Positions 9,001-57,699 of a stretch of DNA of 64,000 nucleotides are shown piece after piece (positions within the stretch are counted from its first letter, which is position 1; every line of letters starts with the position of its first letter). The notes beneath the pieces are model-generated. The model had not been told where the DNA came from. It saw only the letters and a program-made list of their open reading frames with translations, and made no database searches. The position numbers were made by a program, and so were the translations under genes. The stretch comes from Eledone cirrhosa. Its lineage: Eukaryota. The stretch covers positions 21,514,001 through 21,578,000 of the forward strand of contig OZ024753.1 in NCBI GenBank assembly GCA_964016885.1. The letters run 5' to 3'.

Positions 9001-12000
9001 AGTGACCACACCTGACATAACCCATGCTAGCCTTAGTAGTGGTCAGGCCTGACATAACCCATGCTAGCCTTAGTAGTGACCGGACCTGTGATAACCCATG
9101 CTAGACTTAGTAGTGACCAGACCTGACATAACCCATGCTAGCCTTAGTAGTGGCCAGACCTGACATAACCCATGAAAGCCTCAGTAGTGACCAGACCTGA
9201 CATAACCCATTCTAGCCTTAGTAGTGACCAGACCTGACATAACCCATGCTAGCCTTAGTAGTGACCAGACCTGACATAACCCATGCTAGCCTCAGTAGTG
9301 ACCAGACCTGACATAACCCATGAAAGCCTCAGTAGTGACCAGACCTGACATAACCCATGCTAGACTTAGTAGTGACCAGACCTGACATAACCCATGCTAG
9401 CCTCAGTAGAGACCAGACCTGACATAACCCATGCTAGCCTGAATAATGACCAGAACTGACATAACCCATGCTAGCCTGAGTAATGACCAGAACTGACATA
9501 ACCCATGCTAGCCTCAGTAGTGACCAGACCTGACATAACCCATGCTTGCCTTATTAGTGACCAGACCTGACATAACCCATGCTAGTCTCAGTAGTGACCA
9601 GACCTGACATAACCCATGCTAGCCTCAGTAGTGACCAGACCTGACATAACCCATGCTAGCCTCAGTAGTGACCAGACCTGACATAACCCATGCTAGCCGT
9701 AGAATTGACCAGACCTGACATAACCCATGCTAGCCTTAGGAGTGACCAGAACTGACATAACCCATGCTAGCCTCAGTGGTGACCAGACCTTACATAACAC
9801 ATGCTAGCCTTAGTAGTGACCAGACCTGACATAACCCATGCTAGCCTCAGTAGTGACCAGACCTGACATAACCCATGCTAGCCTTAGGAGTGACCAGAAC
9901 TGACATAACCCATGCTAGCCTCAGTAGTGGTCAGACCTGACATAAGCCATGTTATCCTCAGTAGTGGCCAGACCTGACATAACCCATGCTAGACTTAGTA
10001 GTGACCAGACCTTACATAACACATGCTAGCCTCAGTAGTGACCAGACCTGACATAACCCATGCTAGCCTCAGTAGTGACCAGACCTGACATAACCCATGC
10101 TAGCCTTAGTAGTGACCAGACCCGACATAACCCATGCTAGCCTTAGTAGTGACCAGATCTGACATAACCCATGCTAGCCTTAGTAGTGACCAGACCTGAC
10201 ATAACCCATGCTAGCCTTAGTAGTGACCAGACCCGACATAACACATGCTAGCCTTAGTAGTGACCAGACCTGACATAACCCATGCTAGCCTCAGTAGTGA
10301 CCAGACCTGATATAACCCATGCTAGCCTCAGTAGTGACCAAACATGACATAACACATGCTAGCCTTAGTAGTGACCAGACATGACATAATCCATGCTAGC
10401 CTTAGTAGTGACCAGACCTGACATAACCCATGCTAGCCTTAGTAATGACCAGACCTGACATAACCCATGCTAGCCTTAGTAGTGACCAGACCTGACTTAA
10501 CCCATGCTAGCCTCAGTAGTGACCAAACATGACATAACACATGCTAGCCTTAGTAGTGACCAGACATGACATAATCCATGCTAGCCTTAGTAGTGACCAG
10601 ACCTGACATAATCCATGCTAGCCTTAGTAGTGACCAGACCTGAAATAACCCATGCTAGCCTTAGTAGTGACCAGACCTGACATAACCCATGCTAGCCTTA
10701 GTAGTGACCAGACCTGATATAACCCATGCTAGCCTCAGTAGTGACCAAACATGACATAACACATGCTAGCCTTAGTAGTGACCAGACCTGACATAACCCA
10801 TGCTAGCCTTAGTAGTGACCAGACCTGACATAACCCATGCTAGCCTTAGTAGTGACCAAACATGACATAACACATGCTAGCCTTAGTAGTGACCAGACCT
10901 GACATAATCCATGCTAGCCTTAGTAGTGACCAGACCTGACATAACCCATGCTAGCCTTAGTAGTGGTCAGACCTGACATAACCCATGCTAGCCTTAGTAG
11001 TGACCAGACCCGACATAACCCATGCTAGCCTTAGTAGTGACCAGATCTGACATAACCCATGCTAGCCTTAGTAGTGACCAGACCTGACATAAGCCATGCT
11101 AGCCACAGTAGTGACCAGACCTGACATAACCCATGCTAGCCACAGTAGTGACCAGACCTGACTTAACCCATGCTAGCCTCAGTAGTGACCAGACATGACA
11201 TAACACATGCTAGCCTTAGTAGTGACCAGACCTGACATAAGCCATGCTAGCCACAGTAGTGACCAGACCTGACATAACCCATGCTAGCCACAGTAGTGAC
11301 CAGACCTGACATAACCCATGCTAGCCACAGTAGTGACCAGACCTGACATAACCCATGCTAGCCTCAGTAGTGACTAGACCTGACATAACCCATGCTAGCC
11401 TTAGTAGTGACCAGACCTGACATAACCCATGCTAGCCTGAGTAATGACCAGAACTGACATAACCCATGCTAGCCTCAGTAGTGACCAGACCTGACATAAC
11501 CCATGCTAGCCTTAGTAGTGACCAGACCTGACATAACCCATGCTAGCCTGAGTAATGACCAGAACTGACATAACCCATTCTAGCCACAGTAGTGACCAGA
11601 CCTGACATAACCCATGCTAGTCTCAGTAGTGACCAGACCTGACATAACCCATGCTAGCCACAGTAGTGACCAGACCTGACATACCCCATGCTAGCCACAG
11701 TAGTGACCAGACCTGACATAACCCATGCTAGCCACAGTAGTGACCAGACCTGACATAACCCATGCTAGCCACAGTAGTGACCAGACCTGACATAACCCAT
11801 GCTAGCCTTAGTAGTGACCAGACCTGACATAACCCATGCTAGCCACAGTAGTGACCAGACCTGACATAACCCATGCTAGCCACAGTAGTGACCAGACCTG
11901 ACATAACCCATGCTAGCCACAGTAGTGACCAGACCTGACATAACCCATGCTAGCCACAGTAGTGACCAGACCTGACATAACCCATGCTAGCCACAGTAGT

Positions 12001-25828: not shown

Positions 25829-25921
25829 CTCGGTAATCAGATTAGCAGGGGAGGAGGGTGCTCTGAGGCCATAGTATATAGAATAAGGATGGGTTGGAAA
25901 GAGTTGAGGGAGCTGCTTCCT
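25829..25921 (+). pseudogene. Short fragment of an RTE LINE ORF (post-RT region)
   Basis: Translates LGNQISRGGGCSEAIVYRIRMGWKELRELLP, matching LGDKISSGGGCSESTVARVRTGWKKFRELIP in the RTE ORF at 45021-45650. Confidence 0.85.
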
Positions 25922-28900
25922 AACCTACACCCCTCCACCCAGTCTCTAACCTACTCCCCTCCACCAAGTCTCTAACCTACCCCCATTCACCCAGTCTCTA
26001 ACCTACCCCCTCCACCCAGTCTCTAACATAACCCCCGCCACCCAGTCTATAACCTACCTCCCTTCACCCAGTCTCTAACCTACCTCCCGCCACCCAGTCT
26101 ATAACCTACCTCCCTCCACCCAGTCTCTAACCTACCCCCATTCACCCAGTCTCTAACCTACCCCCTGCCACCCATCTCTAACCTAACCCCCACAACCCAG
26201 TCTCTAGCCTAACCCCCACAACACAGTCTCTAGCCTACCCCCCTTCACCCAGTCTCTAGCCTAACCCCCACAACACAGTCTCTAGCCTACCCCCCTTCAC
26301 CCAGTCTCTAACCTACCTCCCTCCACCCAGTCTCTAACCTACCTACCTCAACCCAGCCCTTAACCTACCTCCCTCCACCCAGTCTCTAACCTACCTCCCT
26401 CCACCCAGCCCCTAACCTACCTCCCTCCACTCAGTCTCTAACCTCCCTCCCTCCACCCAGTCTCTAACCTACCTCCCTCCTCCCAGTCTGTAACCTACCT
26501 CCCTCCACCCAGTCTCTAACCTACCTCACTCCTCCCAGTCACTAACCTACCTCCCTCCACCCAGTCTCTAACCTACCTCCCTCCATCCAGTCTCTAACCT
26601 ACCTCCCTCCACCCAGTCTCTAACCTACCTCCCTCCTCCCAGTCTCTAACCTACCTCCCTCCACCCAGTCTCTAACCTACCTCCCTCCTCCCAGTCTCTA
26701 ACCTACCTCCCTCCACCCAGTCTCTAACCTACCTCCCTCCATCCAGTCTCTAACCTACCTCCCTCCCAGTCTCTAACCTACCTCCCTCCACCCAGTCTCT
26801 AACCTACCTCCCTCCACTCAGTCTCTAGCCTACCTCCCTCCACCCAGTCTCTAACCTACCTCCCTCCACCCAGTCTCTAACCTACCTCCCTCCACTGAGT
26901 CTGTAACCTACCTCCCTCCACTCAGTCTCTAGCCTACCTCCCTCCACCCAGTCTCTAACCTACCTCCTTCCACCCAGTCTCTAACCTACCTCCCTCCACC
27001 CAGTCTCTAACCTACCTCCCTCCACCCAGTCTCTAACCTACATCCCTCTACCCAGTCTCTAACCCACTCCCCTCCACCCAGTCTCTAATCTAACCCCTCC
27101 ACCCAACCCCTAACCTACCTCCATCCACTCAGTCTCTAACCTACCTCCCTCCACTCAGTCTCTAACCTACCTCCCTCCACTCAGTCTCTAACCTACCTAC
27201 CTCCACCCAGTCTCCAATCTACCCCCTCCACCCAGCCCCTAACCTATCTCCCTCCACCCAGTCTCTAACCTACCTCCCTCCACCCAGGCCCTAACCTACC
27301 TCCCTCCACCCAGTCTCTAACCTACCTCCCTCCACTCAGTCTCTAACCTACCTCCCTCCACCCAGTCTCTAACCTACCTACCTCCACCCAGGCCCTAACC
27401 TACCTCCCTCCACCCAGTCTCTAACCTACCTCCCTCCACTCAGTCTCTAACCTACCTCCTTCCACCCAGTCTCTAACCTACCTACCTCCCTCAGTCTCTA
27501 GCCTACCTCCCTCCACCCAGTCTCTAACCTACCTCCTTCCACCCAGTCTCTAACCTACCTCCCTCCACTCAGTCTCTAGCCTACCTCCCTCCACCCAGTC
27601 TCTAACCTACCTCCCTCCACCCAGTCTCTAACCTACCTCCCTCCACTCAGTCTCTAACCTACCTCCTTCCACCCAGTCTCTAACCTACCTCCCTCCACTC
27701 AGTCTCTAGCCTACCTCCCTCCACCCAGTCTCTAACCTACCTCCCTCCACCCAGTCTCTAACCTACCTCCCTCCACTCAGTCTCTAACCTACCTCCCTCC
27801 ACCCAGTCTCTAACCTACCGACCTCCACCCAGGCCCTAACCTACCTCCCTCCACCCAGTCTCTAACCTACCTCCCTCCACTCAGTCTCTAACCTACCTCC
27901 TTCCACCCAGTCTCTAACCTACCTACCTCCCTCAGTCTCTAGCCTACCTCCCTCCACCCAGTCTCTAACCTACCTCCTTCCACCCAGTCTCTAACCTACC
28001 TCCCTCCACCAGGCCCTAACCTACCTCCCTCCACCCAGTCTCTAACCTACCTCCTTCCACCCAGTCTCTAACCTACCTCCCTCCACCCAGTCTCTAACCT
28101 ACCTACCTCCACCAGGCCCTAACCTACCTCCCTCCACCCAGTCTCTAACTTACCTCCCTCCACCCAGCCCCTAACCTACCTCCCTCCACTCAGTCTCTAG
28201 CCTACCTCCCAACACCAAGTCTCTAACCTACCTCCCTCCACCCAGTCTCTAACCTACCTCCCTCCACCCAGCCCCTAACCTACCTCCCTCCACCCAGTCT
28301 CTAACCTACCTCCCTCCACCCAGTCTCTAACCTACCTCCCTCCACTCAGTCTCTAACCTACCTCCCTCCACCCAGGCTCTAACCTACCTCCCTCCACTCA
28401 GTCTCTAGCCTACCTCCCTCCACCCAGTCTCTAACCTACCTCCCTCCACCCAGACTCTAACCTACCTCCCTCCACTGAGTCTGTAACCTACCTCCCTCCA
28501 CTCAGTCTCTAGCCTACCTCCCTCCACCCAGTCTCTAACCTACCTCCTTCCACCCAGTCTCTAACCTACCTCCCTCCTCCCAGTCTCTAACCTACCTCCC
28601 TCCACCCAGTCTCTAACCTACCTCCCTCCACCCAGTCTCTAACCTACATCCCTCTACCCAGTCTCTAACCCACTCCCCTCCACCCAGTCTCTAATCTAAC
28701 CCCTCCACCCAGCCCCTAACCTACCTCCATCCACTCAGTCTCTAACCTACCTCCCTCCACTCAGTCTCTAACCTACCTCCCTCCACTCAGTCTCTAACCT
28801 ACCTACCTCCACCCAGTCTCCAATCTACCCCCTCCACCCAGCCCCTAACCTATCTCCCTCCACCCAGTCTCTAACCTACCTCCCTCCACTCAGTCTCTAA

Positions 28901-29099
28901 CCTCCCTCCCTCCACCCAGTCTCTAACCTACCTCCCTCCACCCAGTCTCTAACCCACTCCCCTCCACCCAGTCTCTAATCTACCCCCTCCACCCAGCCCC
29001 TAACCTACCTCCCTCCACCCAGTCTCTAACCTACCTCCCTCCACTCAGTCTCTAACCTACCTCCCTTCACTCAGTCTCTAGCCTACCTCGCTCCACCCA
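25920..29099. repeat. 26-bp C-rich minisatellite (CCAGTCTCTAACCTACCTCCCTCCAC)n, ~120 units
   Basis: Direct tandem units with strong C/G strand skew. Confidence 0.97.
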
Positions 29100-29689: not shown

Positions 29690-32600
29690 AGATACACATA
29701 CTTACAGTCACACACACTCACACAGGCATGCAGGCACACTCACACACCCACACATGCAGAGATACACACACACACTAACCCACGCAGACACTGACATGCA
29801 GATACACACACACACTAATACATGCTGACACACACACTCATACTAATACATGCTGACACACACACTCATGCTAATACATGCTGAGACACACACTCACACA
29901 TGCAGACAAACACACACTCACACATGCAGACAAACACATACTCACACATGCAGACAAACACACACTCACATATGCAAACAAACACACACTCACACAAGCA
30001 GACAAACACATACTCACACATGCAGACAAACACATACTCACACATGCAGACAAACACATACTCACACATGCAGACAAACACACACTCACACATGCAGACA
30101 AACACATACTCACACATGCAGACAAACACATACTCACACATGCAGACAAACACACACTCACACATGCAGACAAACACACACTCACACATGCAGACAAACA
30201 CACACTCACACATGCAGACAAACACACACTCACATTTGCAGACAAACACACACTCACACATGCAGACAAACACACACTCACACATGCAGACAAACACACA
30301 CTCACACATGCAGACAAACACACACTCACATTTGCAGACAAACACACACTCGCACATACAGACAAACACATACTCACACATGCAGACAAACACATACTCA
30401 CACATGCAGACAAACACACACTCACATATGCAGACCAACACACACTCACACATGCAGACAAACACACACTCACATATGCAGACAAACACACACTCACACA
30501 TGCAGACAAACACACACTCACATATGCAGACAAACACACACTCACACATGCAGACAAACACATACTCAAACATGCAGACAAACACACACTCACACATGCA
30601 GACAAACACATACTCACACATGCAGACAAACACATACTCACACATGCAGACAAACACAGACTCACACATGCAGACAAACACATACTCACACATGCAGACA
30701 AACACACACTCACACATGCAGACAAACACATACTCACACATGCAGACAAACACACACTCACATATGCAGACAAACACACACTCACATATGCAGACAAACA
30801 CACACTCACACATGCAGACAAACACACACTCACAGATGCAGACAAACACATACTCACACATGCAGACAAACACACACTCACACATGCAGAAAAACACATA
30901 CTCACACATGCAGACAAACACATACTCACACATGCAGACAAACACAGACTCACACATGCAGACAAACACATACTCACACATGCAGACAAACACACACTCA
31001 CACATGCAGACAAACACATACTCACACATGCAGACAAACACATACTCACACATGCAGACAAACACAGACTCACACATGCAGACAAACACATACTCACACA
31101 TGCAGACAAACACACACTCACACATGCAGACAAACACACACTCACAGATGCAGACAAACACATACTCACATATGCAGACAAACACACACTCACACATGCA
31201 GACAAACACACACTCACAGATGCAGACAAACACATACTCACACATGCAGACAAACACACACTCACACATGCAGAAAAACACATACTCACACATGCAGACA
31301 AACACACACTCACACATGTAGACAAACACACACTCACATATGCAGACCAACACACACTCACACATGCAGACAAACACACACTCACATATGCAGACAAACA
31401 CACACTCACACATGCAGACAAACACACACTCACATATGCAGACAAACACACACTCACACATGCAGACAAACACATACTCACACATGCAGACAAACACACA
31501 CTCACACATGCAGACAAACACATACTCACACATGCAGACAAACACATACTCACACATGCAGACAAACACACACTCACACATGCAGACAAACACATACTCA
31601 CACATGCAGACAAACACACACTCACACATGCAGACAAACACACACTCACACATGCAGACAAACACACACTCACACATGCAGACAAACACACACTCACATT
31701 TGCAGACAAACACACACTCACACATGCAGACAAACACACACTCACACATGCAGACAAACACACACTCACACATGCAGACAAACACACACTCACATATGCA
31801 GACAAACACACACTCACACATGCAGACAAACACACACTCACATATGCAGACAAACACACACTCACACATGCAGACAAACACATACTCACACATGCAGACA
31901 AACACACACTCACACATGCAGACAAACACATACTCACACATGCAGACAAACACATACTCACACATGCAGACAAACACAGACTCACACATGCAGACAAACA
32001 CATACTCACACATGCAGACAAACACACACTCACACATGCAGACAAACACATACTCACACATGCAGACAAACACACACTCACATATGCAGACAAACACACA
32101 CTCACATATGCAGACAAACACACACTCACACATGCAGACAAACACACACTCACAGATGCAGACAAACACATACTCACACATGCAGACAAACACACACTCA
32201 CACATGCAGAAAAACACATACTCACACATGCAGACAAACACACACTCACACATGCAGACAAACACACACTCACATATGCAGACCAACACACACTCACACA
32301 TGCAGACAAACACACACTCACATATGCAGACAAACACACACTCACACATGCAGACAAACACACACTCACATATGCAGACAAACACACACTCACACATGCA
32401 GACAAACACATACTCACACATGCAGACAAACACACACTCACACATGCAGACAAACACATACTCACACATGCAGACAAACACATACTCACACATGCAGACA
32501 AACACACACTCACACATGCAGACAAACACATACTCACACATGCAGACAAACACACACTCACACATGCAGACAAACACATACTCACACATGCAGACAAACA

Positions 32601-32948
32601 CACACTCACATATGCAGACAAACACACACTCACATATGCAGACAAACACACACTCACACATGCAGACATACACACACTCACAGATGCAGACAAACACATA
32701 CTCACACATGCAGACAAACACACACTCACACATGCAGAAAAACACATACTCACACATGCAGACAAACACACACTCACACATGCAGACAAACACATACTCA
32801 CACATGCAGACAAACACACACTCACACATGCAGACAAACACACACTCACATATGCAGACAAACACATACTCACACATGCAGACAAACACATACTCACACA
32901 TGCAGACAAACACATACTCACACATGCAGACAAACACACACACACACA
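29690..32948. repeat. 24-bp CA-rich minisatellite (CACACATGCAGACAAACACAYACT)n with a degenerate CA-rich lead-in
   Basis: Regular from ~29890. Unit length is a multiple of 3 and lacks stops in most frames, which explains the ~1000-aa ORFs. Confidence 0.98.
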
Positions 32949-43887: not shown

Positions 43888-44290
43888 ACAGAAGACCCGC
43901 CTTACCTAAGTACAAAGTGAAACCTACTACAGTCAGTGGGCACCTCTAACAAAAATACCCCCCCCCCCCACCCCATCCACACCACCCCTTTCAATGTAAA
44001 GTTATGTTGGTACCACAACATCCAGTCCGAAACAAATGAGGTCGTGTAGGTGTCATGACAAAAAAACACACAGTCCACGCTGTAATGTGGCCATGTAGGT
44101 AACACCGTAAAAACCTCCCAGTCCACACTGTAAACGTGGTTGGTGTTAGGAAGGGCATCCAGCCGTAGAAAACCTGCCAGACAGTCCTATGCGAGCAAGA
44201 CAACCACTCTTGCCACAAGTGGGAAAACTCCCGTCCAAACCCATGCAAGCGTGGAAGATGGACGTTAAACGATGATGATGATGATGATGA
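43888..44290 (+). mobile_element. 5'-truncated RTE copy (last codons, 3' UTR and (GAT)n tail)
   Basis: Near-identical reverse complement of 44634-45043, beginning AGAAGACCCGCCTTACCTAA (KTRLT*). Confidence 0.92.
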
Positions 44291-44633
44291 TATATATATA
44301 TATATATACACACACACATATTTATATCTATATTTTTAACTGTCGGTCAGTCAATGATAACATTGATTGGCAGGTAAATTAAATATAGGGATATAAAATA
44401 TACGGAAGCGAATATCAACCTAAACCAAACAGTGAGTGTGTTTTATTATGTATTTCTGGCAACAATATAACAATGTGATCCTCCTCAAAGATAACAATGT
44501 TTGTTCCAACACACAATATCATATCAAACAACACACCACCCGGTCTGAGAATTGAACTCACCAGCTTCCGATTGCAAGGCCAATGCTCTATATATATAGA
44601 GCACAGCATATATATATATATATATATATATAT

Positions 44634-47600
44634 ATCATCATCATCATCATCGTTTAACGTCCCTGTTCCATGCTTGCATGGGTTTGGACGGTGGTTTTCC
44701 CACTTGAGGCAAGAGTGGTTGTCTTGCTCGCATAGGACTGTCTGGCGGGTTTTCTACAGCTGGATGCCCTTCCTAACACCAACCACATTTACAGTGTGGG
44801 GCTGGGAGGTTTTTACCGTGTTGCCTACACGGCCACATTACAGCGTGGACTGTGTGTTTTTTGTCGTGACACCTACACGATCTCATTTGTTTCGGCCTGG
44901 ATGTTGTGGCACCAACATAACTTTGCATTGAAGGGGGCGGTGTGGATGGGGTGGGGGTGGTGGAATGGGGGTGTATTTTGTTAGAGATGCCTACTGACTG
45001 TAGTATGTTTTACTTTGTATTTAGGTAAGGCGGGTCTTCTCTGTTACTGAGTACCGCCAAAGGTCTCGGTCCAGTGACATTGTCTTGGAGAGGTGTAAGT
45101 GTGTGAGGTCGGAATTTATCAGCTCGTCCCAGGTTTTCCTGGGTCTGCCTACTCCATGGCTACCATCTATCTTTATTGCCCTGCACTTTGTTATACAGCT
45201 GTCGTCTTTCATGCGCATCACGTGACCATACCAACGTAGCCTTCTCTCGAGTAAATAACATCTGATCCCTCTTATTTCTAATTTTTTCCTTAGTTCGTTT
45301 ATGCTTTGCCGTTCACGTATATTACTATTACACATCCAGCGGAGCATGCAAGCTTCGTTCCTCTCTAGTCTGCGTATATCCTCTGCACACAATGCCCAGG
45401 TCTCACTGCCATGCAACATTGATGTTCGTATGCAGGCATCATACAACCTGCCTTTCATTTTTAGGGAGAACCCTTTAGCGGCTAATAGTGGTATAAGCTC
45501 TCTGAACTTTTTCCATCCAGTTCTGACTCTAGCTACTGTACTTTCAGAGCACCCTCCCCCACTGCTGATTTTGTCACCCAGGTAACGGAAGCTGTCCACT
45601 ATTTCTATAGAACCCTCTGCGCAATTGAAAGAGTTAGTATTTGTGAGCACTTGCTGCTACTTATTGCACCAGAGCACCGGCCACATGTAAAATCTGTGTT
45701 CTTAGTTAGCTTACCTGTGATCCCACTACATCTTTTATGCACCCATACTTTGCATTTGGGACATAAAATGGAGTTTCTGCCTACGCCTTCCCTACACACT
45801 GAGCTTGGCCATTTCCTGGAGGGGACCGGCGCCTTATTTTCTTTCCTACAAACTAGAACTTTAGTCTTAGCCAGGTTAATTTTAAGGCCTTTTGATTCTA
45901 GGCCGTGCTTCCATGTTTGGAATTTCTTCTCTAGCTCGGCCATTGATTCAGCTATAAGCGTTAGATCATCTGCGTATAGGAGTTCCCATGGGCAGCCGGT
46001 CTTGAACTCCTCTATTATAGCCTGAAGGGCAATAATAAATAGTAGGGGGCTAAGAACAGAGCCCTGATGGACACCAACTTTTACGCTAAACTCTTCACTA
46101 TATTCGTTGTTAATTCTAACCTTGCTGACTGTTTCTTTATACATGGCTTGTATGGCTCTCACAAGCCATTCGTCAACACCTAGTTTTCTAAGAGCCCACC
46201 AGATAATGGAACGGGGGACTCTGTCGAAGGCTTTCTCCAAGTCGACAAAAGCTAAGTATAGGGGCTTACTTTTAGCTAGGTACTTCTCCTGTAGTTGTCG
46301 TACAATGAAAAGAGCGTCTGTGGTACTTTTGCCTTATACAAACCTGAACTGCATTTCATCTAGGTCAATTCTCTCTCTGATTAGTTGCGCTATTACTTTT
46401 TCCGTGACCTTCATGACCTGGTCGATTAATTTAATGCCTCTATAGTTACTCCTGTCTAGGGCGTCTCCTTTACCCTTGTAACAGTTAACGATGATGCTGC
46501 TACGCCAGTCCTTCGGAACAACCCCATTCTGTATGACTTGGTTTACTATCCGGGTGACCATGGTGTGTCCCACCATACCGGAGGCTTTCAGCATCTCAGC
46601 AACTATTTCCGAAGGCCCAGCCGCCTTACCCGTCTTCATATCTTTGATTGCCTTACTTATTATACTACCTTCGACTAACACTGCTGGTCCCTCTATTGGG
46701 TCGATGTGAGGGAGACTGTCTTTCTCCCATTTATTCTCCTCATTTAGTAGCCTTTCGTAGTGACACTTCCAAGCTACCTTCTTATCAGCGTCAGTGATGG
46801 CAAGTACGCCATCATCGTTATGTACACACTTCTCCCCGACAATATCACGGTTTTCCTTGACACATTGCCTAGCAATCCTGAACACCTGACGTTTTTGGTC
46901 CTCGCGTTGTAGAACATGCTTGAACTTTCTTTCCTCTGCTTCCCTTCTTGCGAAGTACACTTGTCTCCTAGCTTGCCTCCTGGCCACTTGATAGTCTTCT
47001 CTACTTCCCCAATCCCGCCATGCTTTCCAAGCCTGCTTTTTGGCCTTGATTGACCCCTCCACCTTCCTCTTCCACCACCATGTTACTCTCCTCCTGCCTA
47101 CAGGCCTGCTCCAGCCACAGACTTCGTCTGCCGCCATCAGCAGGTTTGCTTTCAGGAATTCCCACTGTTCCTCTATATTGTAAGACTCTAATTGCTCTTC
47201 CTTACTGTCGAAAGCATCAAGTAATATGCTTTGAAATTTATTTCTGGCTGTGGGATCCTTTAGCTTCCATATTTTTCTCCTGAAGATAGTCCTCTTCTGC
47301 TGTCTAGTACGTCTCGTCCTGACTATGAGGTCGCTAATTATCAGTCTATGTTGGGAGGTGCATTCTTCATGGGGGAGGGATTTAGTGTTTACAACAGACA
47401 CTCTGTCACGTCTTCTGGTAAGGATATAATCTACCTGGCTGGTATGTTCTCCTGATCTGTAGGTGATCAAGTGATTGTCTCGTTTTTTGAAGTTAGTGTT
47501 ACAGATAGTTAGGTTGTTTGTATCACAGAATTCCAGGATTCTGGAGCCTTCCTCATTTCTTGTACCAAACCCATAGCCTCCGTGGATTCCGTCATAGCCG

Positions 47601-48290
47601 TCACAGTGTTGTCCAACGTGACCATTTAGGTCGCCAGCAATAATTATATAGTCACTGTCGGTTATTTGGGAGGTAGTGAGCATCAGTATCTCATAGAATC
47701 TGTCTTTTATAGCGCCAGGCAGTCCGGATTGGGGCACGTATGCAGATATTACTGTCACAGTAGTTCTATTTAGAACAAGTCTTATTTTAATTATTCTGTC
47801 ATTCACTCTATTTACATCTATTATCTTATCTACCCATTTTTCTGCTAACATGATTCCTACCCCACCTATCCCATTGTCATTCCCCACCCGGAAAAGCTTA
47901 TAGCAACGTTTGTTACCCACAATGAATCTAGCAGACCCGCCCCTCCACCTGGTCTCTTGGATACAGCAAACATCAACCTCCTTACGTTCAAGCAATTCTA
48001 CAACCTCGTTTGAGCGGCCTTTTAAGGTGCCTACGTTCATGGTACCAACTCTGAAGTTTTGGATTGTGTTTGGGGGATGGGGCGCAGGGAGGGGTGAGGG
48101 GAATGAGTTTGGGGTTATGTTGGCCATCCGCGGCCGAAACAACGAGGGGGGGCCTTTCCCCTTCGTCCGGCAGCATGAGGTGGATTTGTCGTTATCTTTG
48201 GCATTGTCATCGAGTGTCCAGATTCTTCAGACTCTCCAGAAATTCCTTAGTCCATCCATCATATCGAAAAGCAGCCAGTAGTGATTGGTC
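44634..48290 (-). mobile_element. Near-full-length RTE-clade LINE; 5' boundary uncertain (may extend to ~48766)
   Basis: APE endonuclease, RT and C-terminal domain across three ORF pieces; ~390-bp 3' UTR and (GAT)n tail. Confidence 0.95.
45021..48142 (-). pseudogene. RTE ORF (APE endonuclease-RT, Cys/His finger) broken by frameshifts near 46330 and 45640
   Basis: TMNVGTL, IQETRW, GDLNGH, VDYIL, SQHR (APE); EKAFDRV, GVHQGSVLSP, YADD (RT); FRYLG, HGSETW, RRLRWYGHV, GRPRKTW (RTE C-terminus). Confidence 0.95.
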
Positions 48291-48766: not shown

Positions 48767-48808
48767 TTACATTACATTTTCGTAGAATCGAATATGTAAT
48801 GTAATCCT

Positions 48809-49378
48809 ATGATATTTAATAGGAACGTAGTTAAGATCAGTTACTCTTGTCGCCCATCTATGAAGTCCAAGATCACTAGTTCAAATCATACGAGAACAAA
48901 TCCAGGATGCAGTTGCAGGAAGCCGGATGAATGCCCATTGCAGGGCAAATGTAACACCAAATCTGTTGTTTATGAGGCTAAAATAACACCGTTAATCAAC
49001 AACCAGCCAGCCAGGAGTGAGCGATATGTCGGCATGACCCAGGACAGGTTTAAAGCCAGATTTTACTCACATGTCGCTTCTTTTAAGCACTCCGATAAAC
49101 GAACGACAACGGCCCTCGCAAGTAAGGTGTGGGAATTCAAGGATAATAACATCCCATACTCTATCGATTGGTCTATTTTAGACCATTCGAGGGAGTACCA
49201 AAGGGGCACAAATAATTGTTCTTTGTGTACCACAGAAAAATATAGGATTTTGTTAAACTTGAGAGCTACTTCTGCTTGCCTGAATTCAAAGACCGAGATC
49301 TTTAGATGTTGTCCTCATCTGAAATCACATCTGATCTGTAACTGGATTGACATTCCTGTGATAACTCAACCGCCTTGA
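48809..49378 (+). mobile_element. 5'-truncated Penelope-like element: linker plus GIY-YIG endonuclease, open frame
   Basis: IFNRNVVKISYSC, CSCRKPDECPLQGKC, VVYEA...YVG (GIY-YIG), FKARFYSH, CSLCTTEK; homologous to 52496-53060. Confidence 0.9.
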
Positions 49379-50672: not shown

Positions 50673-50676
<4 letters not shown>

Positions 50677-50761
50677 AAGGTTTTATTTAAAATTGTTGGG
50701 TTACAACGAGTAAATATTTTATAACTGATATAAAAGCACTCAACAAGTTTTGGAGTATATT

Positions 50762-51117
50762 TACGATATTAAACAAATGGAAACTATATTTATAAAACCA
50801 TATTTATTTCATTATATATATTTCAGGGATATCATATTAAAAATATGGTATGCCCTCTTCAGACAAAATACAATATATAAACAGTTTTATAAATAAATTT
50901 GACATACCTTAAACTTTACAACTTCCATTTAAAAAGTTAAACAACTTTTTAAATGGAAGTTGTAAAGTTTAAGGTATGTCAAATTTATTTATAAAACTGT
51001 TTATATATTGTATTTTGTCTGAAGAGGGCATACCATATTTTTAATATGATATCCTTGAAATATATATAATGAAATAAATATGGTTTTATAAATATAGTTT
51101 CCATTTGTTTAATATCG

Positions 51118-51119
<2 letters not shown>
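50762..51119. repeat. Palindrome with 177-bp arms, 4-nt loop and 1 mismatch seen
   Basis: Positions i and 101881-i are complementary; centre AAAAAGTT-aaac-AACTTTTT. Confidence 0.97.
51011..51076 (+). ncRNA. Minimal hammerhead motif in the right palindrome arm (mirror on - strand at 50805-50870)
   Basis: TATTTTGT-CTGAAGA-GGGCATACCATATT ttt AATATGATATCCTT-GAAA-TATATA-TA-ATGAAATA; stem I is 8 bp with two GU pairs. Confidence 0.65.
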
Positions 51120-51152
<33 letters not shown>

Positions 51153-52495: not shown

Positions 52496-54605
52496 CTATC
52501 CGTTAGGGTATAATGTGGGGCTGTAATACAGGAAAGTTTTGTGCAATTTATGTTTACAAGCCGAAATTGCCTCAGATTTTTTGTTTAAGATGTGGTCCGT
52601 GGCGTAGAGTATTTCCAGGGCCTCAGCGGTGCAGAGGTTACATGGTCTTTTATTTCCGTTATACGATCTAGCCCTAGCTTGGATCTCCCAGTGTAACTTA
52701 TATTGGGTGTGGTTGTCTTTTAGACTCCAGATATAAGCTGAAAGTGACGTCATATTCCTTCTTAGAGGGTAACGAAAAGAATGGGTATGCATGTAAAGAC
52801 GCTGCTTGAATCTATTGGTGGTTAACCCTATGTAGGCCCTACGGGACGTGGGTGTTTCAACCTTACATTTGTAGACAATGTTACTAGAGAGGCATTTCTC
52901 AGATAGGAGGCAATCAACCCGATTCCTACAATTACAGTTAGTACTAACTACAGGGTTGCACGTGTTCATACGGCTAGGTAGTTTAGCTAAATTTGAAGCT
53001 GTTATGTGCAATGTTAGGAGTCATAGAGTAAGAAATTTTAATAGTATTTCTATTAAAAATTTTACTATATTTATGTGTAGGGGGAAATGCTTCGTAATAA
53101 GGGATAGAAAGATCTTAGCTAATGGTGTGGCCACCTCCATATTATATGGTGGGTTATACCATATAATGCAACGGGATCTATTTCTTCTAGGTCTATTCTT
53201 GTACTCTGTATATGCTACCTTATCGACAAATCCACTCCGAGCAAGAGCTTCATTGTAAGAAGTGGAATGGTCGTTGAAAATATGCTCGTTAGTAGATAGA
53301 CGGGAAAGCCTCAACGAAACGTTTCTTACCAGATTCTTGGTTATGCTAGCAGGATGGTTGGAATGCTTACTTATGTAATTAAGCGTATCATTCGGCTTTC
53401 TATATGGGTAATACAAGCCATTCGATAAATTGAGGGTAACGTCGAGGTAATTAATGACCCAGAGGTTGGCCACAACCTGTATAGAGAGGTTGAAGCCTTT
53501 AAAGAAGGCTGTGAGTTCTTTTCTGAACCTGTCGCAAGCACGAGGTCCGCACTTAGTCATAGTCAAAAGACCATCATCACGGTACAAACTCCGCCCGCGT
53601 TGGGGAATTCGTCCTTGATAGAGAAAAGAAGGAAAGGGCCGATAAGATCAGTAACCTCAGAAGAATTGCTGACGCCCATACTCATGTCGAATGGGGTACT
53701 ATTGGATTTTTTAATCCAAATAGAGTCGTCGAAATTAATCACCGACTTACGGGCATTGAGGATGACATCAACTTCGAAATCCTTAATCACTGTGAGTGTT
53801 TTAGCGAAATTGATAGCTCTAAGGAGAAGTGGTAAAGTGATGGAGGAGTAGTAATTATTGATGTCGAATTGGATAAAACGGCAATGTTCCTTGTTGCATA
53901 TGCCGTTGAACCAATCAATCACCGCGAAAGAATTGTTCCACAGTGCAAGAGGGGCCAAACTTCTAATTTCAAGTATAATTCTATCAAGAATCCTTTTACT
54001 AAGTCTACCTAAATCAGACTCCGTAGGGTTAATAAGCCGAATAGAGGGGCTGTTCGGAAAATTGGATTTGTGATCCTTCAGGGTAAAGTGGGGAGAAATA
54101 GGGTCCAGAGGCTCGGTCCGGTCCAGGATGTTGAGATCAGAGGTGATTTTAAACCAGCATCGTTGATTTCATTGATGATGCACCAATTAGTTTTACGGTA
54201 ATCCTTAGTTACAGCATTATGTAGTAGTTGATGGTAAGTACTGCGCTCCACTTGATATAGGTTGCCAGTTTTGTCGGAATGGACGTGCACGGCATTAGAA
54301 TCCTTAATAGAACGAATTCTATTTTTCAGGTCCTGCTGGAAGGAATTGCTCCTATTCCGAAATTTGATACTCCATATGAGTTCCAAGACATCATTTTCAA
54401 AGGGTAGCAATGGAAGGGTATTATAGGTTTTAAACCCAAATTTATCCTGTTTGTTGTCAGCTTTACGCGGATTATCGAAATAAAAGGCACGCCAACGCAA
54501 CCTTTTAATGAACAGGTCTGTTTTCTGTATCAGGAGTTTTAGGTATGATTTCCTACTTGGTACGGGTATGTTCTTTGTATAAATATTCAGATGTTGTTTC
54601 TGCAT
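52496..54605 (-). pseudogene. Near-complete Penelope-like element ORF (RT + GIY-YIG, probably Naiad-like) with ~4 frameshifts
   Basis: KNIPVP...RLRWRAFYF...FGFKT, DKTGNLY, TLKDHK...RLINP, QFDINNYY, YRDDGL, YLDVTLNL, SNHP, IIWYNPPY, KIFNRNTIKISYS, IVYKC...YIG, CNLC. Clade assignment is inference. Confidence 0.93.
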
Positions 54606-54778
54606 GATGAATATAAGTTAATAGAGTGCTCAACCGAGGGAGCCAAATAGTAATAATAATAAATTTGAAGACTAAAATCCAAAGAGGGCTCGATAAGGAT
54701 AAATATATATCAAATATATAAGAACCGTAGAGCAAATATATATTTATATATATATACACACGCGCACACACACACACA

Positions 54779-56039: not shown

Positions 56040-56047
<8 letters not shown>

Positions 56048-56344
56048 GACAGGGGGGAAGAAAAAAATGGCTTCACTTGTGCTTTCAACAAATTTATTTT
56101 CTTCACAAAATCCCAAAAGAATTTTTTTCCGGATTAGAAAAAAAAATTTTTCTTAAAAAAAAATTTTTTTTTTTAAATTGAGTTCTTGGTTGCCAACAAC
56201 TTAATTTATAAAAAAAAATTTTTTTTTTTAAGAAAAAAATTTTTTTCTAATCCGGAAAAAAATTCTTTTGGGATTTTGTGAAGAAAATAAATTTGTTGAA
56301 AGCACAAGTGAAGCCATTTTTTTCTTCAGGGGTGTCTTAATATA
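56040..56344. repeat. AT-rich palindrome with ~150-bp arms
   Basis: TATATTAAGACA...GAAGAAAAAAATGGCTTCACTTGTGC mirrored by GCACAAGTGAAGCCATTTTTTTCTTC...TGTCTTAATATA. Confidence 0.93.
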
Positions 56345-56373
56345 CCTAACTGTACCAATGATTACACACATTT

Positions 56374-56427
<54 letters not shown>

Positions 56428-56479
56428 TTTCTGAATTTGTTTAGCAAGATTCTTTATCTGAAATCGTGTGTTGAAACCG

Positions 56480-56970
56480 ATATTGTTATACTTTGGGAGG
56501 GTCATGTTGCCAATAAGAAACACACGCACCAGTTGCTTTCACTTCAATTTAATTTAATATATATTTATAAATTTACAAATTTATAAATTTCTGGTTGGTT
56601 GGTTGGTTCCACAACCAGAAAGTTGTTTATATATATATAGTCATAGTTCTTTCGTCACACACTCTGTGACCTCTTCAGTGACTGGGGATTTCTTTCTTCG
56701 TTTCTGTGCCTTTCCTTTCTTCTATCCTACGCCATTTTGGGCACAGAAACGAAGAAAGAAATCCCCAGTCACTGAAGAGGTCACAGAGTGTGTGACGAAA
56801 GAACTATGACTATATATATATAAACAACTATCTGGTTGTGGAACCAACCAACCAACCAGAAATTTATAAATTTGTAAATTTATAAATATATATTAAATTA
56901 AATTGAAGTGAAAGCAACTGGTGCGTGTGTTTCTTATTGGCAACATGACCCTCCCAAAGTATAACAATAT
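56480..56970. repeat. Palindrome with 231-bp arms and a 29-nt spacer
   Basis: Positions i and 113450-i are complementary; about 1 mismatch seen. Confidence 0.97.
56767..56811 (+). ncRNA. Minimal hammerhead ribozyme in the right palindrome arm (mirror on - strand at 56639-56683)
   Basis: AGTCA-CTGAAGA-G-GTCACA gagtg TGTGAC-GAAA-GaaC-TA-TGACT; stems I and II pair perfectly. Confidence 0.8.
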
Positions 56971-57699
56971 ATATATATATATATATACTGTATATATATA
57001 AATAAAAGGATAAAGATCCCATAACTCCTCGTGGAGTCGTAGAGGCACCATCATACCGCGTGTCTAGGGCACTTTTAAACCTGGTGGAACCTAACCTTCT
57101 CCAGGTCTGAACACAGCTGATTTTTTTCTATAGAGGAAGAATCGACCCCAGTACAGAACTGGTACTTTTTTATGAACCTTGGAAGGATGAAAGGCAAAGT
57201 TGACCATGGCGGGATTTGAACTCAGAGCACAAAATGAGGTGGGACAAATACCATAAAGCATTCTATGCTACATCTTAATGACTCTGCCAATATATATATA
57301 TATAATTGCGAAATTCTTTTATTCATGGAAAATGGACGTTAAATGATGATGATGGTGATGATACATATTTCAATGGCATTCATTGTTATGTGATGCTTTG
57401 GTAATATATATAAAACAACCATCAACTTTGTGAGGTGGTCATGCTGGTGCCACAACAAAAGAAAGCAGTCTATCCAGATCCATCATTCTACCCTAAAATG
57501 CTAACACAGCAATCATACACCCGTCTGTTATTATGCCAGCACCTCCCACATTAGTTGAGGTCCCCTTTCCTCTTTATTCACCACCCTGTTAAATCCCACC
57601 ACTTCACCACACTCCTCATACACCCATGACATCATATTTATGCTTCATAAATAACAACCCCTGCATGCGAGTTGAGTAGTGAGGTCTCTTTAGTCGAGT

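What the first reader, a model, noticed from the sequence alone, without database searches (positions are those of the whole stretch)
56480..56970. Palindrome carrying the same hammerhead ribozyme on both strands
Seen: 231-bp near-perfect arms, with a complete minimal type-I HHR at 56767-56811(+) and therefore also at 56639-56683(-). In either transcription direction the antisense copy is made first and the ribozyme second. Established: PLEs carry minimal HHRs with very short stem III in their pseudo-LTRs and can leave inverted copies. Inference: this is a head-to-head pseudo-LTR pair with no adjoining ORF. It may be a non-autonomous fold-back ribozyme element, whose HHR is masked by dsRNA unless the hairpin is processed or A-to-I edited.
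Basis: partly seen in the sequence, partly recalled or inferred. Interest (0 to 1): 0.8.

Follow-up and report, generated by a model that had tools for sequence, protein, structure and literature searches.

The report
Two-ended Penelope retroelement ribozyme stump
This mirror-image sequence is a gene-less stump of a very abundant Penelope-like jumping gene, likely built at its landing site from two short DNA copies of one RNA, and RNA-editing-like marks in sister copies point to that route, with whole hairpin RNAs likely recopied in a minority of cases.

Summary
The palindrome and the two hammerhead motifs are real, at the stated places. The tailed arm is 99.4% identical to the pLTR and first 27 codons of an intact 1318-aa RT/GIY-YIG Penelope-like element elsewhere in this genome (10,083 exact tail ends). 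In 95 insertions picked by their tail alone, 69 have a head-to-head inverted arm and 34 are ORF-less pairs like this one. The layout is the published PLE one. Best mechanism: two cDNAs primed on the two target strands, at two fixed sites on one sense RNA, then joined. Support: some arm pairs do not overlap; loop orientation is 21:21; same-apex palindromes are not one clade; eight A>G-hypermutated insertions carry the same marks on both arms' sense strands. Such editing breaks the ribozyme core rather than unmasking it. Cleavage, expression and reads across this locus are untested. Earlier notes of this scan reported twin priming and editing fossils on other DNA, this genome included.

The parts
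56425..56739 (-). Tailed sense arm = pLTR positions 233-547 of the parent PLE (numbered from the base after the ORF stop in L072): putative 5' end region, hammerhead, 5' UTR, start codon, first 27 codons
   Evidence: 99.4% identity over 315 nt to L072
56425..56479 (-). One-sided 55-nt tail (pLTR 493-547), inside the start of the parent ORF; it lies between the two fixed family ends, 492 and 547
   Evidence: the tail as the stretch between two RT start sites is from PMC11167929
56740..56970 (+). Tailless inverted arm = pLTR positions 262-492
   Evidence: 99.6% identity over 231 nt to L072
56639..56683 (-). Minimal type-I hammerhead motif of the tailed arm; predicted cut between 56644 and 56643
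   Evidence: conservation; cleavage not tested
56767..56811 (+). Minimal type-I hammerhead motif of the tailless arm; predicted cut between 56806 and 56807
   Evidence: cleavage not tested
56711..56740 (-). Unpaired 29 nt (pLTR 233-261, present in one arm only) and the head-to-head junction at 56739/56740. Position 233 lies in the family's pile-up of 5' ends; the first ten bases resemble a YY1 site (motif recalled)
   Evidence: junction found once in the genome; pile-up
56503..56505 (-). Start codon of the parent ORF in the tailed arm (mirror at 56945-56947, +)
   Evidence: sequence; ORF start in L072
56378..56426 (.). (TA)n tract at the tailed end; likely target site
   Evidence: (TA)n follows the tail at 10,083 places
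56967..56987 (.). (TA)n tract at the tailless end
   Evidence: same junction in sister copies

Best explanation
This is an ORF-less, head-to-head pair of pseudo-LTRs of an abundant endonuclease-bearing Penelope-like retrotransposon, likely made at this site by two reverse transcriptions primed on the two cut strands of a (TA)n target and copying one sense RNA from two fixed start points. Shown by sequence: the parent element, the two fixed outer ends (pLTR 547 with tail, 492 without), the (TA)n flanks, and that such pairs are common. Inferred: the element's protein cuts both target strands. One cDNA starts at 547 and the other at 492, both run towards the RNA's 5' end, and their 3' ends are joined head to head. 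When the RNA starts at the pLTR's own promoter (likely near position 220-233), both cDNAs are short and the product is this stump. The hammerhead is a passenger from the pLTR. In a read-through transcript it would be locked in a long hairpin that ADAR likely edits, and now and then such a hairpin RNA is likely recopied whole.
For: Parent: a tandem array with a 4423-bp unit and an intact 1318-aa ORF. RT region matches RVT_1 weakly (E 2e-4, below cut-off); the C-terminus aligns at 39% to the GIY-YIG region of homologue P0043. In 95 insertions picked by the tail only, 69 have an adjoining inverted arm; 48 of those 69 end at 492, 3 at 547, and 18 were not traced or end elsewhere; 34 of 95 are ORF-less pairs. 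Either arm can be the longer (33 tailless, 25 tailed, 8 equal), and in 5 the arms do not overlap, so neither could be copied from the other. At the commonest apex (52 loci) the 3-nt loop points 21:21 relative to the tail, and both orientations occur among identical sequences. The 42 apex copies in the tree are rejected as one clade against 59 parent-type pLTRs (AU p 1.2e-6). Edit barcodes: the two arms share 32 of 33/32, 12 of 15/16, 93 of 95/97, 14 of 15/15 and 102 of 102/102 A>G sites, with 2-31 expected by chance, 0-1 T>C per arm, and between-locus Jaccard 0.12-0.46. Three more pairs agree (L219/220 at 31 of 31, L227/228, and weakly L215/216). In 38 pairs not chosen for editing, private substitutions are mostly on one arm (77, against 18 shared), so arms are not routinely homogenised afterwards. 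5' ends pile up at 218-240 (21 ends, 0.91 per nt, against 0.25 downstream and 0.03 upstream; p 5e-6, interval chosen after seeing the data). In vitro, an anole PLE protein cuts and extends both target strands and starts at two sites flanking the tail (PMC11167929).
Against: Two ORF-less palindromes (L200, L232) have A>G on the tailed arm and T>C on the tailless arm, that is all changes on one physical strand, which fits whole-hairpin recopying. Among edited ORF-less palindromes the count is only 3 to 2 (the searches differ, so this is not a rate). 35 of 42 same-apex copies fall in the youngest clade, where only 7 of 59 parent-type pLTRs lie, so palindromic source loci may contribute. One pair (L212/213) shares 20 of 20 A>G sites but lies tail to tail, 10 kb apart, so DNA-level copying can also duplicate a barcode. 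The window copy carries no edit marks, so its own route is inferred from the family. 26 of 95 insertions show no inverted arm. The 3' G preference of the marks (0.48, against 0.28-0.30; partly inflated by the search pattern) differs from the weak downstream-G preference reported for octopus (PMC5625713), although 5' C and G are disfavoured as expected (0.19 and 0.23, against 0.41-0.42). No RNA or cleavage data.
Confidence: 0.75

Rival explanations
1. Non-autonomous fold-back element: palindromes are transcribed as hairpins and recopied whole by the parent's enzyme, and this copy descends from such a source.
For: L200 (16-18 A>G on one arm, 13 T>C on the other) and L232 (20 and 27) have normal ends in (TA)n and one-strand marks. 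52 loci share one apex, enriched in the youngest clade. The window copy differs from that apex by a 22-nt gap.
Against: This junction is single-copy, and no unedited source for L200 was found. Apex copies are not one clade, and both loop orientations occur among identical copies. Eight edited pairs were rebuilt from the sense strand. The two T>C pattern searches found only 2 loci in the genome. Arm lengths vary continuously.
Confidence: 0.13
2. One cDNA folds back on itself, or an antisense transcript self-primes (the reading in PMC3846280), so the second arm is a DNA copy of the first.
For: Would also give identical marks on both arms. Small apex duplications (L034, L042, L044, L046, L047) and short junction palindromes look like snap-back synthesis. 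8 pairs have equal 5' ends.
Against: Five tail-picked insertions and L113 have arms that do not overlap, and in 33 pairs the tailless arm reaches further than the tailed one, while the tail is absent from the tailless arm. Marks read A>G on the element's sense strand: 2 of 158 loci not chosen for editing show A>G excess, and none shows T>C excess. An antisense template would give T>C.
Confidence: 0.08
3. Fold-back sequencing or assembly artefact.
For: Perfect palindromes can arise from fold-back reads; no read spanning this locus was seen.
Against: The one-sided tail and the two exact ends match the family's biology at dozens of other loci. The arms differ at one base, and the palindrome does not extend into the flanks.
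Confidence: 0.02
4. A MITE of a TA-targeting DNA transposon with whole-length inverted repeats.
For: Short, palindromic, non-coding, sits in TA, many copies.
Against: The arms are the pLTR of an RT-encoding element; the ends are asymmetric; arm lengths vary from tens of bases to kilobases; sister copies carry RNA-editing-like marks.
Confidence: 0.01

Closest known systems
Endonuclease-bearing Penelope-like element insertions with an inverted pLTR and a one-sided tail (Pen2a_Av and others, PMC3846280; overview in PMC8557442; passages read)
   Same: Head-to-head inverted 5'-truncated copy, tail on one end only, pLTR plus tail covering the first codons of the ORF, partial tandems, microsatellite targets.
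   Different: No ORF between the arms; tail is 55 nt rather than 30-40; (TA)n hides any target duplication. PMC3846280 favours self-priming on an antisense template and leaves sense versus antisense open, while the marks here read as a sense template.
Poseidon element of Anolis carolinensis in vitro (PMC11167929; parts 1-2 of 4 read)
   Same: Two RT start sites inside the ORF start that bound the tail, AT-rich targets, both strands cut and extended, predicted dimer, ribozyme cleavage not needed for insertion.
   Different: The parts read do not say that the two start sites serve the two ends of one insertion, or that both cDNAs come from one RNA. The ribozyme here lies about 140 nt upstream of the start codon rather than overlapping it.
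Minimal hammerheads of metazoan PLEs (PMC4209133, PMC6765202; passages read)
   Same: [quoted passage not shown]
   Different: Positions 15.2-16.2 with loop 3 are only partly palindromic (two A-A mismatches in a dimer), and the two copies are antisense to each other, so one transcript holds only one ribozyme-sense copy.
Non-LTR retrozymes (bioRxiv 10.64898/2026.07.22.740005; part 1 of 5 read)
   Same: Non-coding, type-I hammerhead, derived from a PLE pLTR.
   Different: Retrozymes are head-to-tail tandem units; this is one head-to-head pair.
LINE-1 twin priming (recalled, no call)
   Same: Two cDNAs primed from the two target strands on one RNA give an inversion.
   Different: In L1 it is a minority event with a variable internal priming site; here the inverted arm is the rule (69 of 95) and both start sites are fixed.

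Membership tests
EN+ Penelope-like element (parent family) | Single ORF with PLE-type RT and C-terminal GIY-YIG endonuclease | tested here: met
   1318-aa ORF in L072; weak RVT_1 match below cut-off; C-terminus 39% identical to the GIY-YIG region of P0043. No tree against named PLE references was built.
EN+ Penelope-like element (parent family) | Tandem or partial-tandem copies forming pLTRs that include the ORF start | tested here: met
   L072/L073 tandem array with a 4423-bp unit; partial tandems in L063, L064, L069, L071
EN+ Penelope-like element (parent family) | Inverted 5'-truncated copy and tail at one end | tested here: met
   69 of 95 inverted; 48 of 69 end 55 nt short of the tail end
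EN+ Penelope-like element (parent family) | Clade (Neptune/Nematis carry an extra Zn-finger-like linker) | tested here: inconclusive
   A Cys-rich stretch precedes the endonuclease, which fits Neptune or Nematis (PMC8557442); no phylogeny with references
PLE minimal hammerhead | Complete core, extra nucleotide at 9/10.1, G10.1-C11.1, helix I of 4-5 bp | tested here: met
   features from PMC4209133
PLE minimal hammerhead | Palindromic 15.2-16.2 and loop 3 allowing a dimer | tested here: not met
   Outer G-C pairs only; the two inner bases do not pair in either common variant
PLE minimal hammerhead | Self-cleavage as monomer, dimer or with protein help | not testable with these tools
   no assay
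Non-LTR retrozyme | Head-to-tail units, each with a type-I hammerhead | tested here: not met
   head-to-head pair
Self-propagating non-autonomous fold-back lineage | Copies share one junction and form a clade apart from the autonomous element | tested here: not met
   junction single-copy; apex copies rejected as a clade; two copies do look recopied whole
MITE (DNA transposon) | Symmetric terminal inverted repeats unrelated to a retroelement | tested here: not met
   asymmetric tail; identity with a PLE pLTR

The most novel reading that the evidence does not exclude
This family records in DNA the full insertion cycle of Penelope-like elements. Normal integration is two-ended priming on one sense RNA. 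Its short double-ribozyme stumps (several hundred in this genome, by rough extrapolation from 8 of 95 to about 10,000) are transcribed into hairpins that ADAR edits. A share of those hairpins is recopied whole as non-autonomous fold-back retroelements. The stumps or other inverted arms also supply the antisense strand that gets the parent's own pLTR edited and its ribozyme disabled, a self-made brake on the element.
Probability: 0.3. Interest if true: 0.7.

Novelty: new member of a known kind. Interest (0 to 1): 0.45.

Why it matters
The copy itself is one ordinary stump among thousands, and the layout is published. The family matters because how PLEs make inverted pLTRs, and whether they copy a sense or an antisense RNA, is left open in PMC3846280 and PMC8557442. 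Here each hypermutated insertion has its own A>G barcode, and the barcode sorts insertions into two routes: rebuilt from one sense RNA, or recopied as a whole hairpin. That turns the open question into a count that can be made in one assembly, and into a clear prediction for the existing in vitro system. It also suggests that RNA editing is written into the germline through these elements. I found no paper stating either point in five searches, but the library lacks most subscription journals, and earlier notes of this scan reached similar readings.

Tried and rejected
Rfam: no hammerhead family at either threshold, only generic hairpin matches; Rfam neither supports nor excludes a minimal motif. 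Pfam on the whole 1318-aa protein: nothing. A DNA search with the tail found nothing because common words are skipped; pattern searches then found thousands. Searches used too long a gap; their hits were kept and added. My first idea, that the purine-rich apex was the end of the ORF, was wrong: it lies 233 nt after the stop. A rolling-hairpin DNA mechanism for the two loop orientations was considered and dropped once the RT-encoding parent and the edit marks were found. Sequencing runs: no RNA holder listed. Laying four runs on the central 173 nt gave only short contigs of a high-copy family and none spanning the junction: no verdict on this locus. A genome-wide count of the whole hammerhead motif was not obtained. 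Of 20 matches (18 loci) to the A>G core pattern, 8 loci were clearly hypermutated and 10 were not or only weakly. Of 43 matches, 30 were fetched; 24 not seen before were analysed, covering 4 new edited loci or pairs. No unedited source copy for L200 was found. The YY1 reading of the apex is recalled; the paper consulted (PMC3286893) gave only a reference title. Lunse et al. 2017 on dimeric PLE hammerheads was not read. No supplements were read.

Full report
Observation. The arms are at 56480-56710 and 56740-56970, 231 nt each, with 29 nt between them and one mismatch. A descriptor scan of the window gave six hits. The two at 56767-56811(+) and 56639-56683(-) have a 5-bp stem I, a complete core, an extra nucleotide, a 6-bp stem II and a minimal stem III. 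These match the minimal PLE hammerhead of PMC4209133 (passages), except that the stem III region is only partly palindromic. Rfam has no hammerhead match. Among 154 arms from 86 loci the core and stem II vary least (1.4% and 0.8% per site, against 6.2% in loop II and 6.5% in the flank), and subfamily variants avoid them (p 0.028). The copies are related and no compensatory change was seen, so this is modest support. Folding predicts that the motif forms in one arm (stem II 0.995) and not in the full hairpin (about 1e-20).

What it is. A search of the genome with the central 105 nt gave 76 matches on many chromosomes, mostly in inverted pairs. The copies share a one-sided tail and sit in (TA)n; in the window the tail is 56425-56479. 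The tail continues into an ORF at other loci. Thirteen stretches fetched around such places include a tandem array with a 4423-bp unit and an intact 1318-aa ORF (L072). Its RT region matches RVT_1 weakly and its C-terminus aligns with a homologue's GIY-YIG domain. The nearest named relative is an Octopus vulgaris protein at 68%, so the host is likely a cephalopod (inference). Numbering from the ORF stop, the window holds pLTR 233-547 on the minus strand and 262-492 on the plus strand, at 99.4% and 99.6% identity. The tail followed by (TA)n occurs exactly at 10,083 places.

How typical it is. I took 97 loci chosen only by the tail, all on contig C1: 37 and 60 consecutive unfetched ones. One earlier-fetched locus in that run (L063) was left out, and two pairs were the same insertion, leaving 95. 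Of these, 69 have an adjoining head-to-head arm; 48 of the 69 end at 492, 3 at 547, and 18 were not traced or end elsewhere; 34 of 95 are ORF-less pairs; 8 of 95 reach the hammerhead region on both arms (heuristic chaining). This layout is published: inverted pLTR, optional tail, microsatellite bias (PMC8557442 and PMC3846280, passages). PMC11167929 (parts 1-2 of 4) shows in vitro that the tail lies between two RT start sites, that both target strands are cut and extended, and that ribozyme cleavage is not needed.

Mechanism, structural evidence. The tail is never in the tailless arm. The tailless arm reaches further upstream in 33 pairs, the tailed arm in 25, and they are equal in 8; in 5 the arms do not overlap. 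So both arms need an RNA template, which is what two primed cDNAs give. 5' ends pile up at 218-240 and drop sharply upstream (21 ends; 0.91, 0.25 and 0.03 per nt; p 5e-6, interval chosen after the fact). I read this as the RNA's start (inference; PLE start sites lie in the pLTR, PMC2377424 and PMC6765202, passages; a YY1-like motif there is recalled). One exact apex occurs at 52 loci. Its loop points 21:21 relative to the tail. In a tree of 42 apex copies and 59 parent-type pLTRs the apex copies are interleaved with parents and rejected as one clade (AU p 1.2e-6), and both loop orientations occur among identical rows. Against this, 35 of the 42 lie in the youngest clade. The window's own junction is single-copy; it could be a fresh join, or that apex with 22 nt lost.

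Mechanism, edit barcodes. Among 158 loci not chosen for editing, 2 carry A>G clusters on the element's sense strand, and none carries T>C, G>A or C>T clusters. Pattern searches added more. In five pairs the arms share 32, 12, 93, 14 and 102 edited sites, against 2.3, 2.9, 30.9, 3.0 and 23.9 expected, with 0-1 T>C per arm, while different loci overlap only partly (Jaccard 0.12-0.46). Three more pairs agree. The 5' neighbours are U 0.42, A 0.41, C 0.19 and G 0.23, as expected for ADAR; the 3' G preference (0.48) is stronger than reported for octopus (PMC5625713, passages). Later homogenisation is an unlikely cause, since in 38 pairs not chosen for editing 77 private substitutions are on one arm and 18 on both. 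One tail-to-tail pair 10 kb apart does share its marks, so DNA-level copying can happen. The simplest reading is one edited sense RNA copied twice. This bears on the sense-or-antisense question left open in PMC3846280.

The minor route. Mirror searches for T>C found two loci in the genome. Both are ORF-less palindromes with A>G on the tailed arm and T>C on the tailless arm (L200: 16-18 and 13; L232: 20 and 27). That puts all the changes on the strand of a read-through transcript. No unedited source was found for L200. Hairpin templates are bound to be over-represented among edited copies, so 2 against 8 is not a rate. The changes hit the catalytic core, so editing would disable the ribozyme.

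Artefact. Not checked by reads: no RNA holder was listed and short contigs did not span the junction. The family-exact ends and the one-sided tail make an artefact unlikely.

Known and new. Works like, and is filed as, an EN+ PLE insertion: a new member of a known kind. It is not a retrozyme (bioRxiv 10.64898/2026.07.22.740005, part 1 of 5) and not a MITE. Five paper searches (listings only) showed nothing stating two-ended priming on one RNA for PLEs, or edit barcodes in genomic PLE copies; the library is incomplete. Earlier notes of this scan report both on other DNA, this genome included. I had reached the two-ended reading and the shared-edit result before reading them, and they are not independent support. 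Verdict: real; ordinary in kind; useful as a test bed. Interest 0.45.

Noticed in passing
window 50673-51125: A second palindrome (183-nt arms) with a one-sided tail of about 80 nt, (TA)n flanks and a weaker hammerhead-like motif. It belongs to another dispersed family (1084 candidates) with inverted arms at varied distances; one sister locus (L135) has a PLE-like endonuclease C-terminus upstream. Likely the same process in a second PLE family.
   Followed up: partly
window 56040-56374: A third inverted pair (136-nt arms, 93%) with a one-sided extension, directly beside the finding in the same (TA)n-rich patch; a dispersed family (1227 candidates). Parent not sought.
   Followed up: partly
L063, L087, L110, L113, L116, L117, L120, L124 (pLTR 400-547): A>G marks almost vanish over pLTR 400-547 (4 of 406 A sites, against 25-53% over 225-374), although inverted arms reach 492. 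The region around the two start sites may be protein-covered or need to stay unedited. L200 and L232 do carry marks there.
   Followed up: partly
L063 (G000:C1:2082000-2091900): In a partial tandem, the upstream pLTR and the inverted arm share about 30 A>G marks starting at pLTR 235, while the downstream pLTR is unmarked: the two cDNAs appear to have started on different pLTRs of one RNA.
   Followed up: yes
L169/L170, L194/L195: Insertions with the tail on both ends (3 of 69 inverted arms end at or near 547); start-site use is not strictly one of each.
   Followed up: no
L072:3900-4500: The parent ORF has a long Asn/Thr/His-rich low-complexity insert before the RT, recalling the N-rich inserts of rotifer PLEs in PMC3846280.
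   Followed up: no
window 12-23774, 25920-29099, 29886-32948: Tandem arrays with periods 37 (642 copies), 26 and 24.
   Followed up: no
window 52496-54617(-) and 48800-49378(+): Broken ORF pieces that read like RT and GIY-YIG parts of other Penelope-like families (motifs recognised from memory; no tblastn hit to P0001).
   Followed up: no
window 43959-44963: Inverted arms of about 330 nt in all (92-95%) around a 345-nt spacer; not examined.
   Followed up: no
window 45021-48226(-): ORF pieces of a LINE-type endonuclease/RT element (recognised from memory).
   Followed up: no
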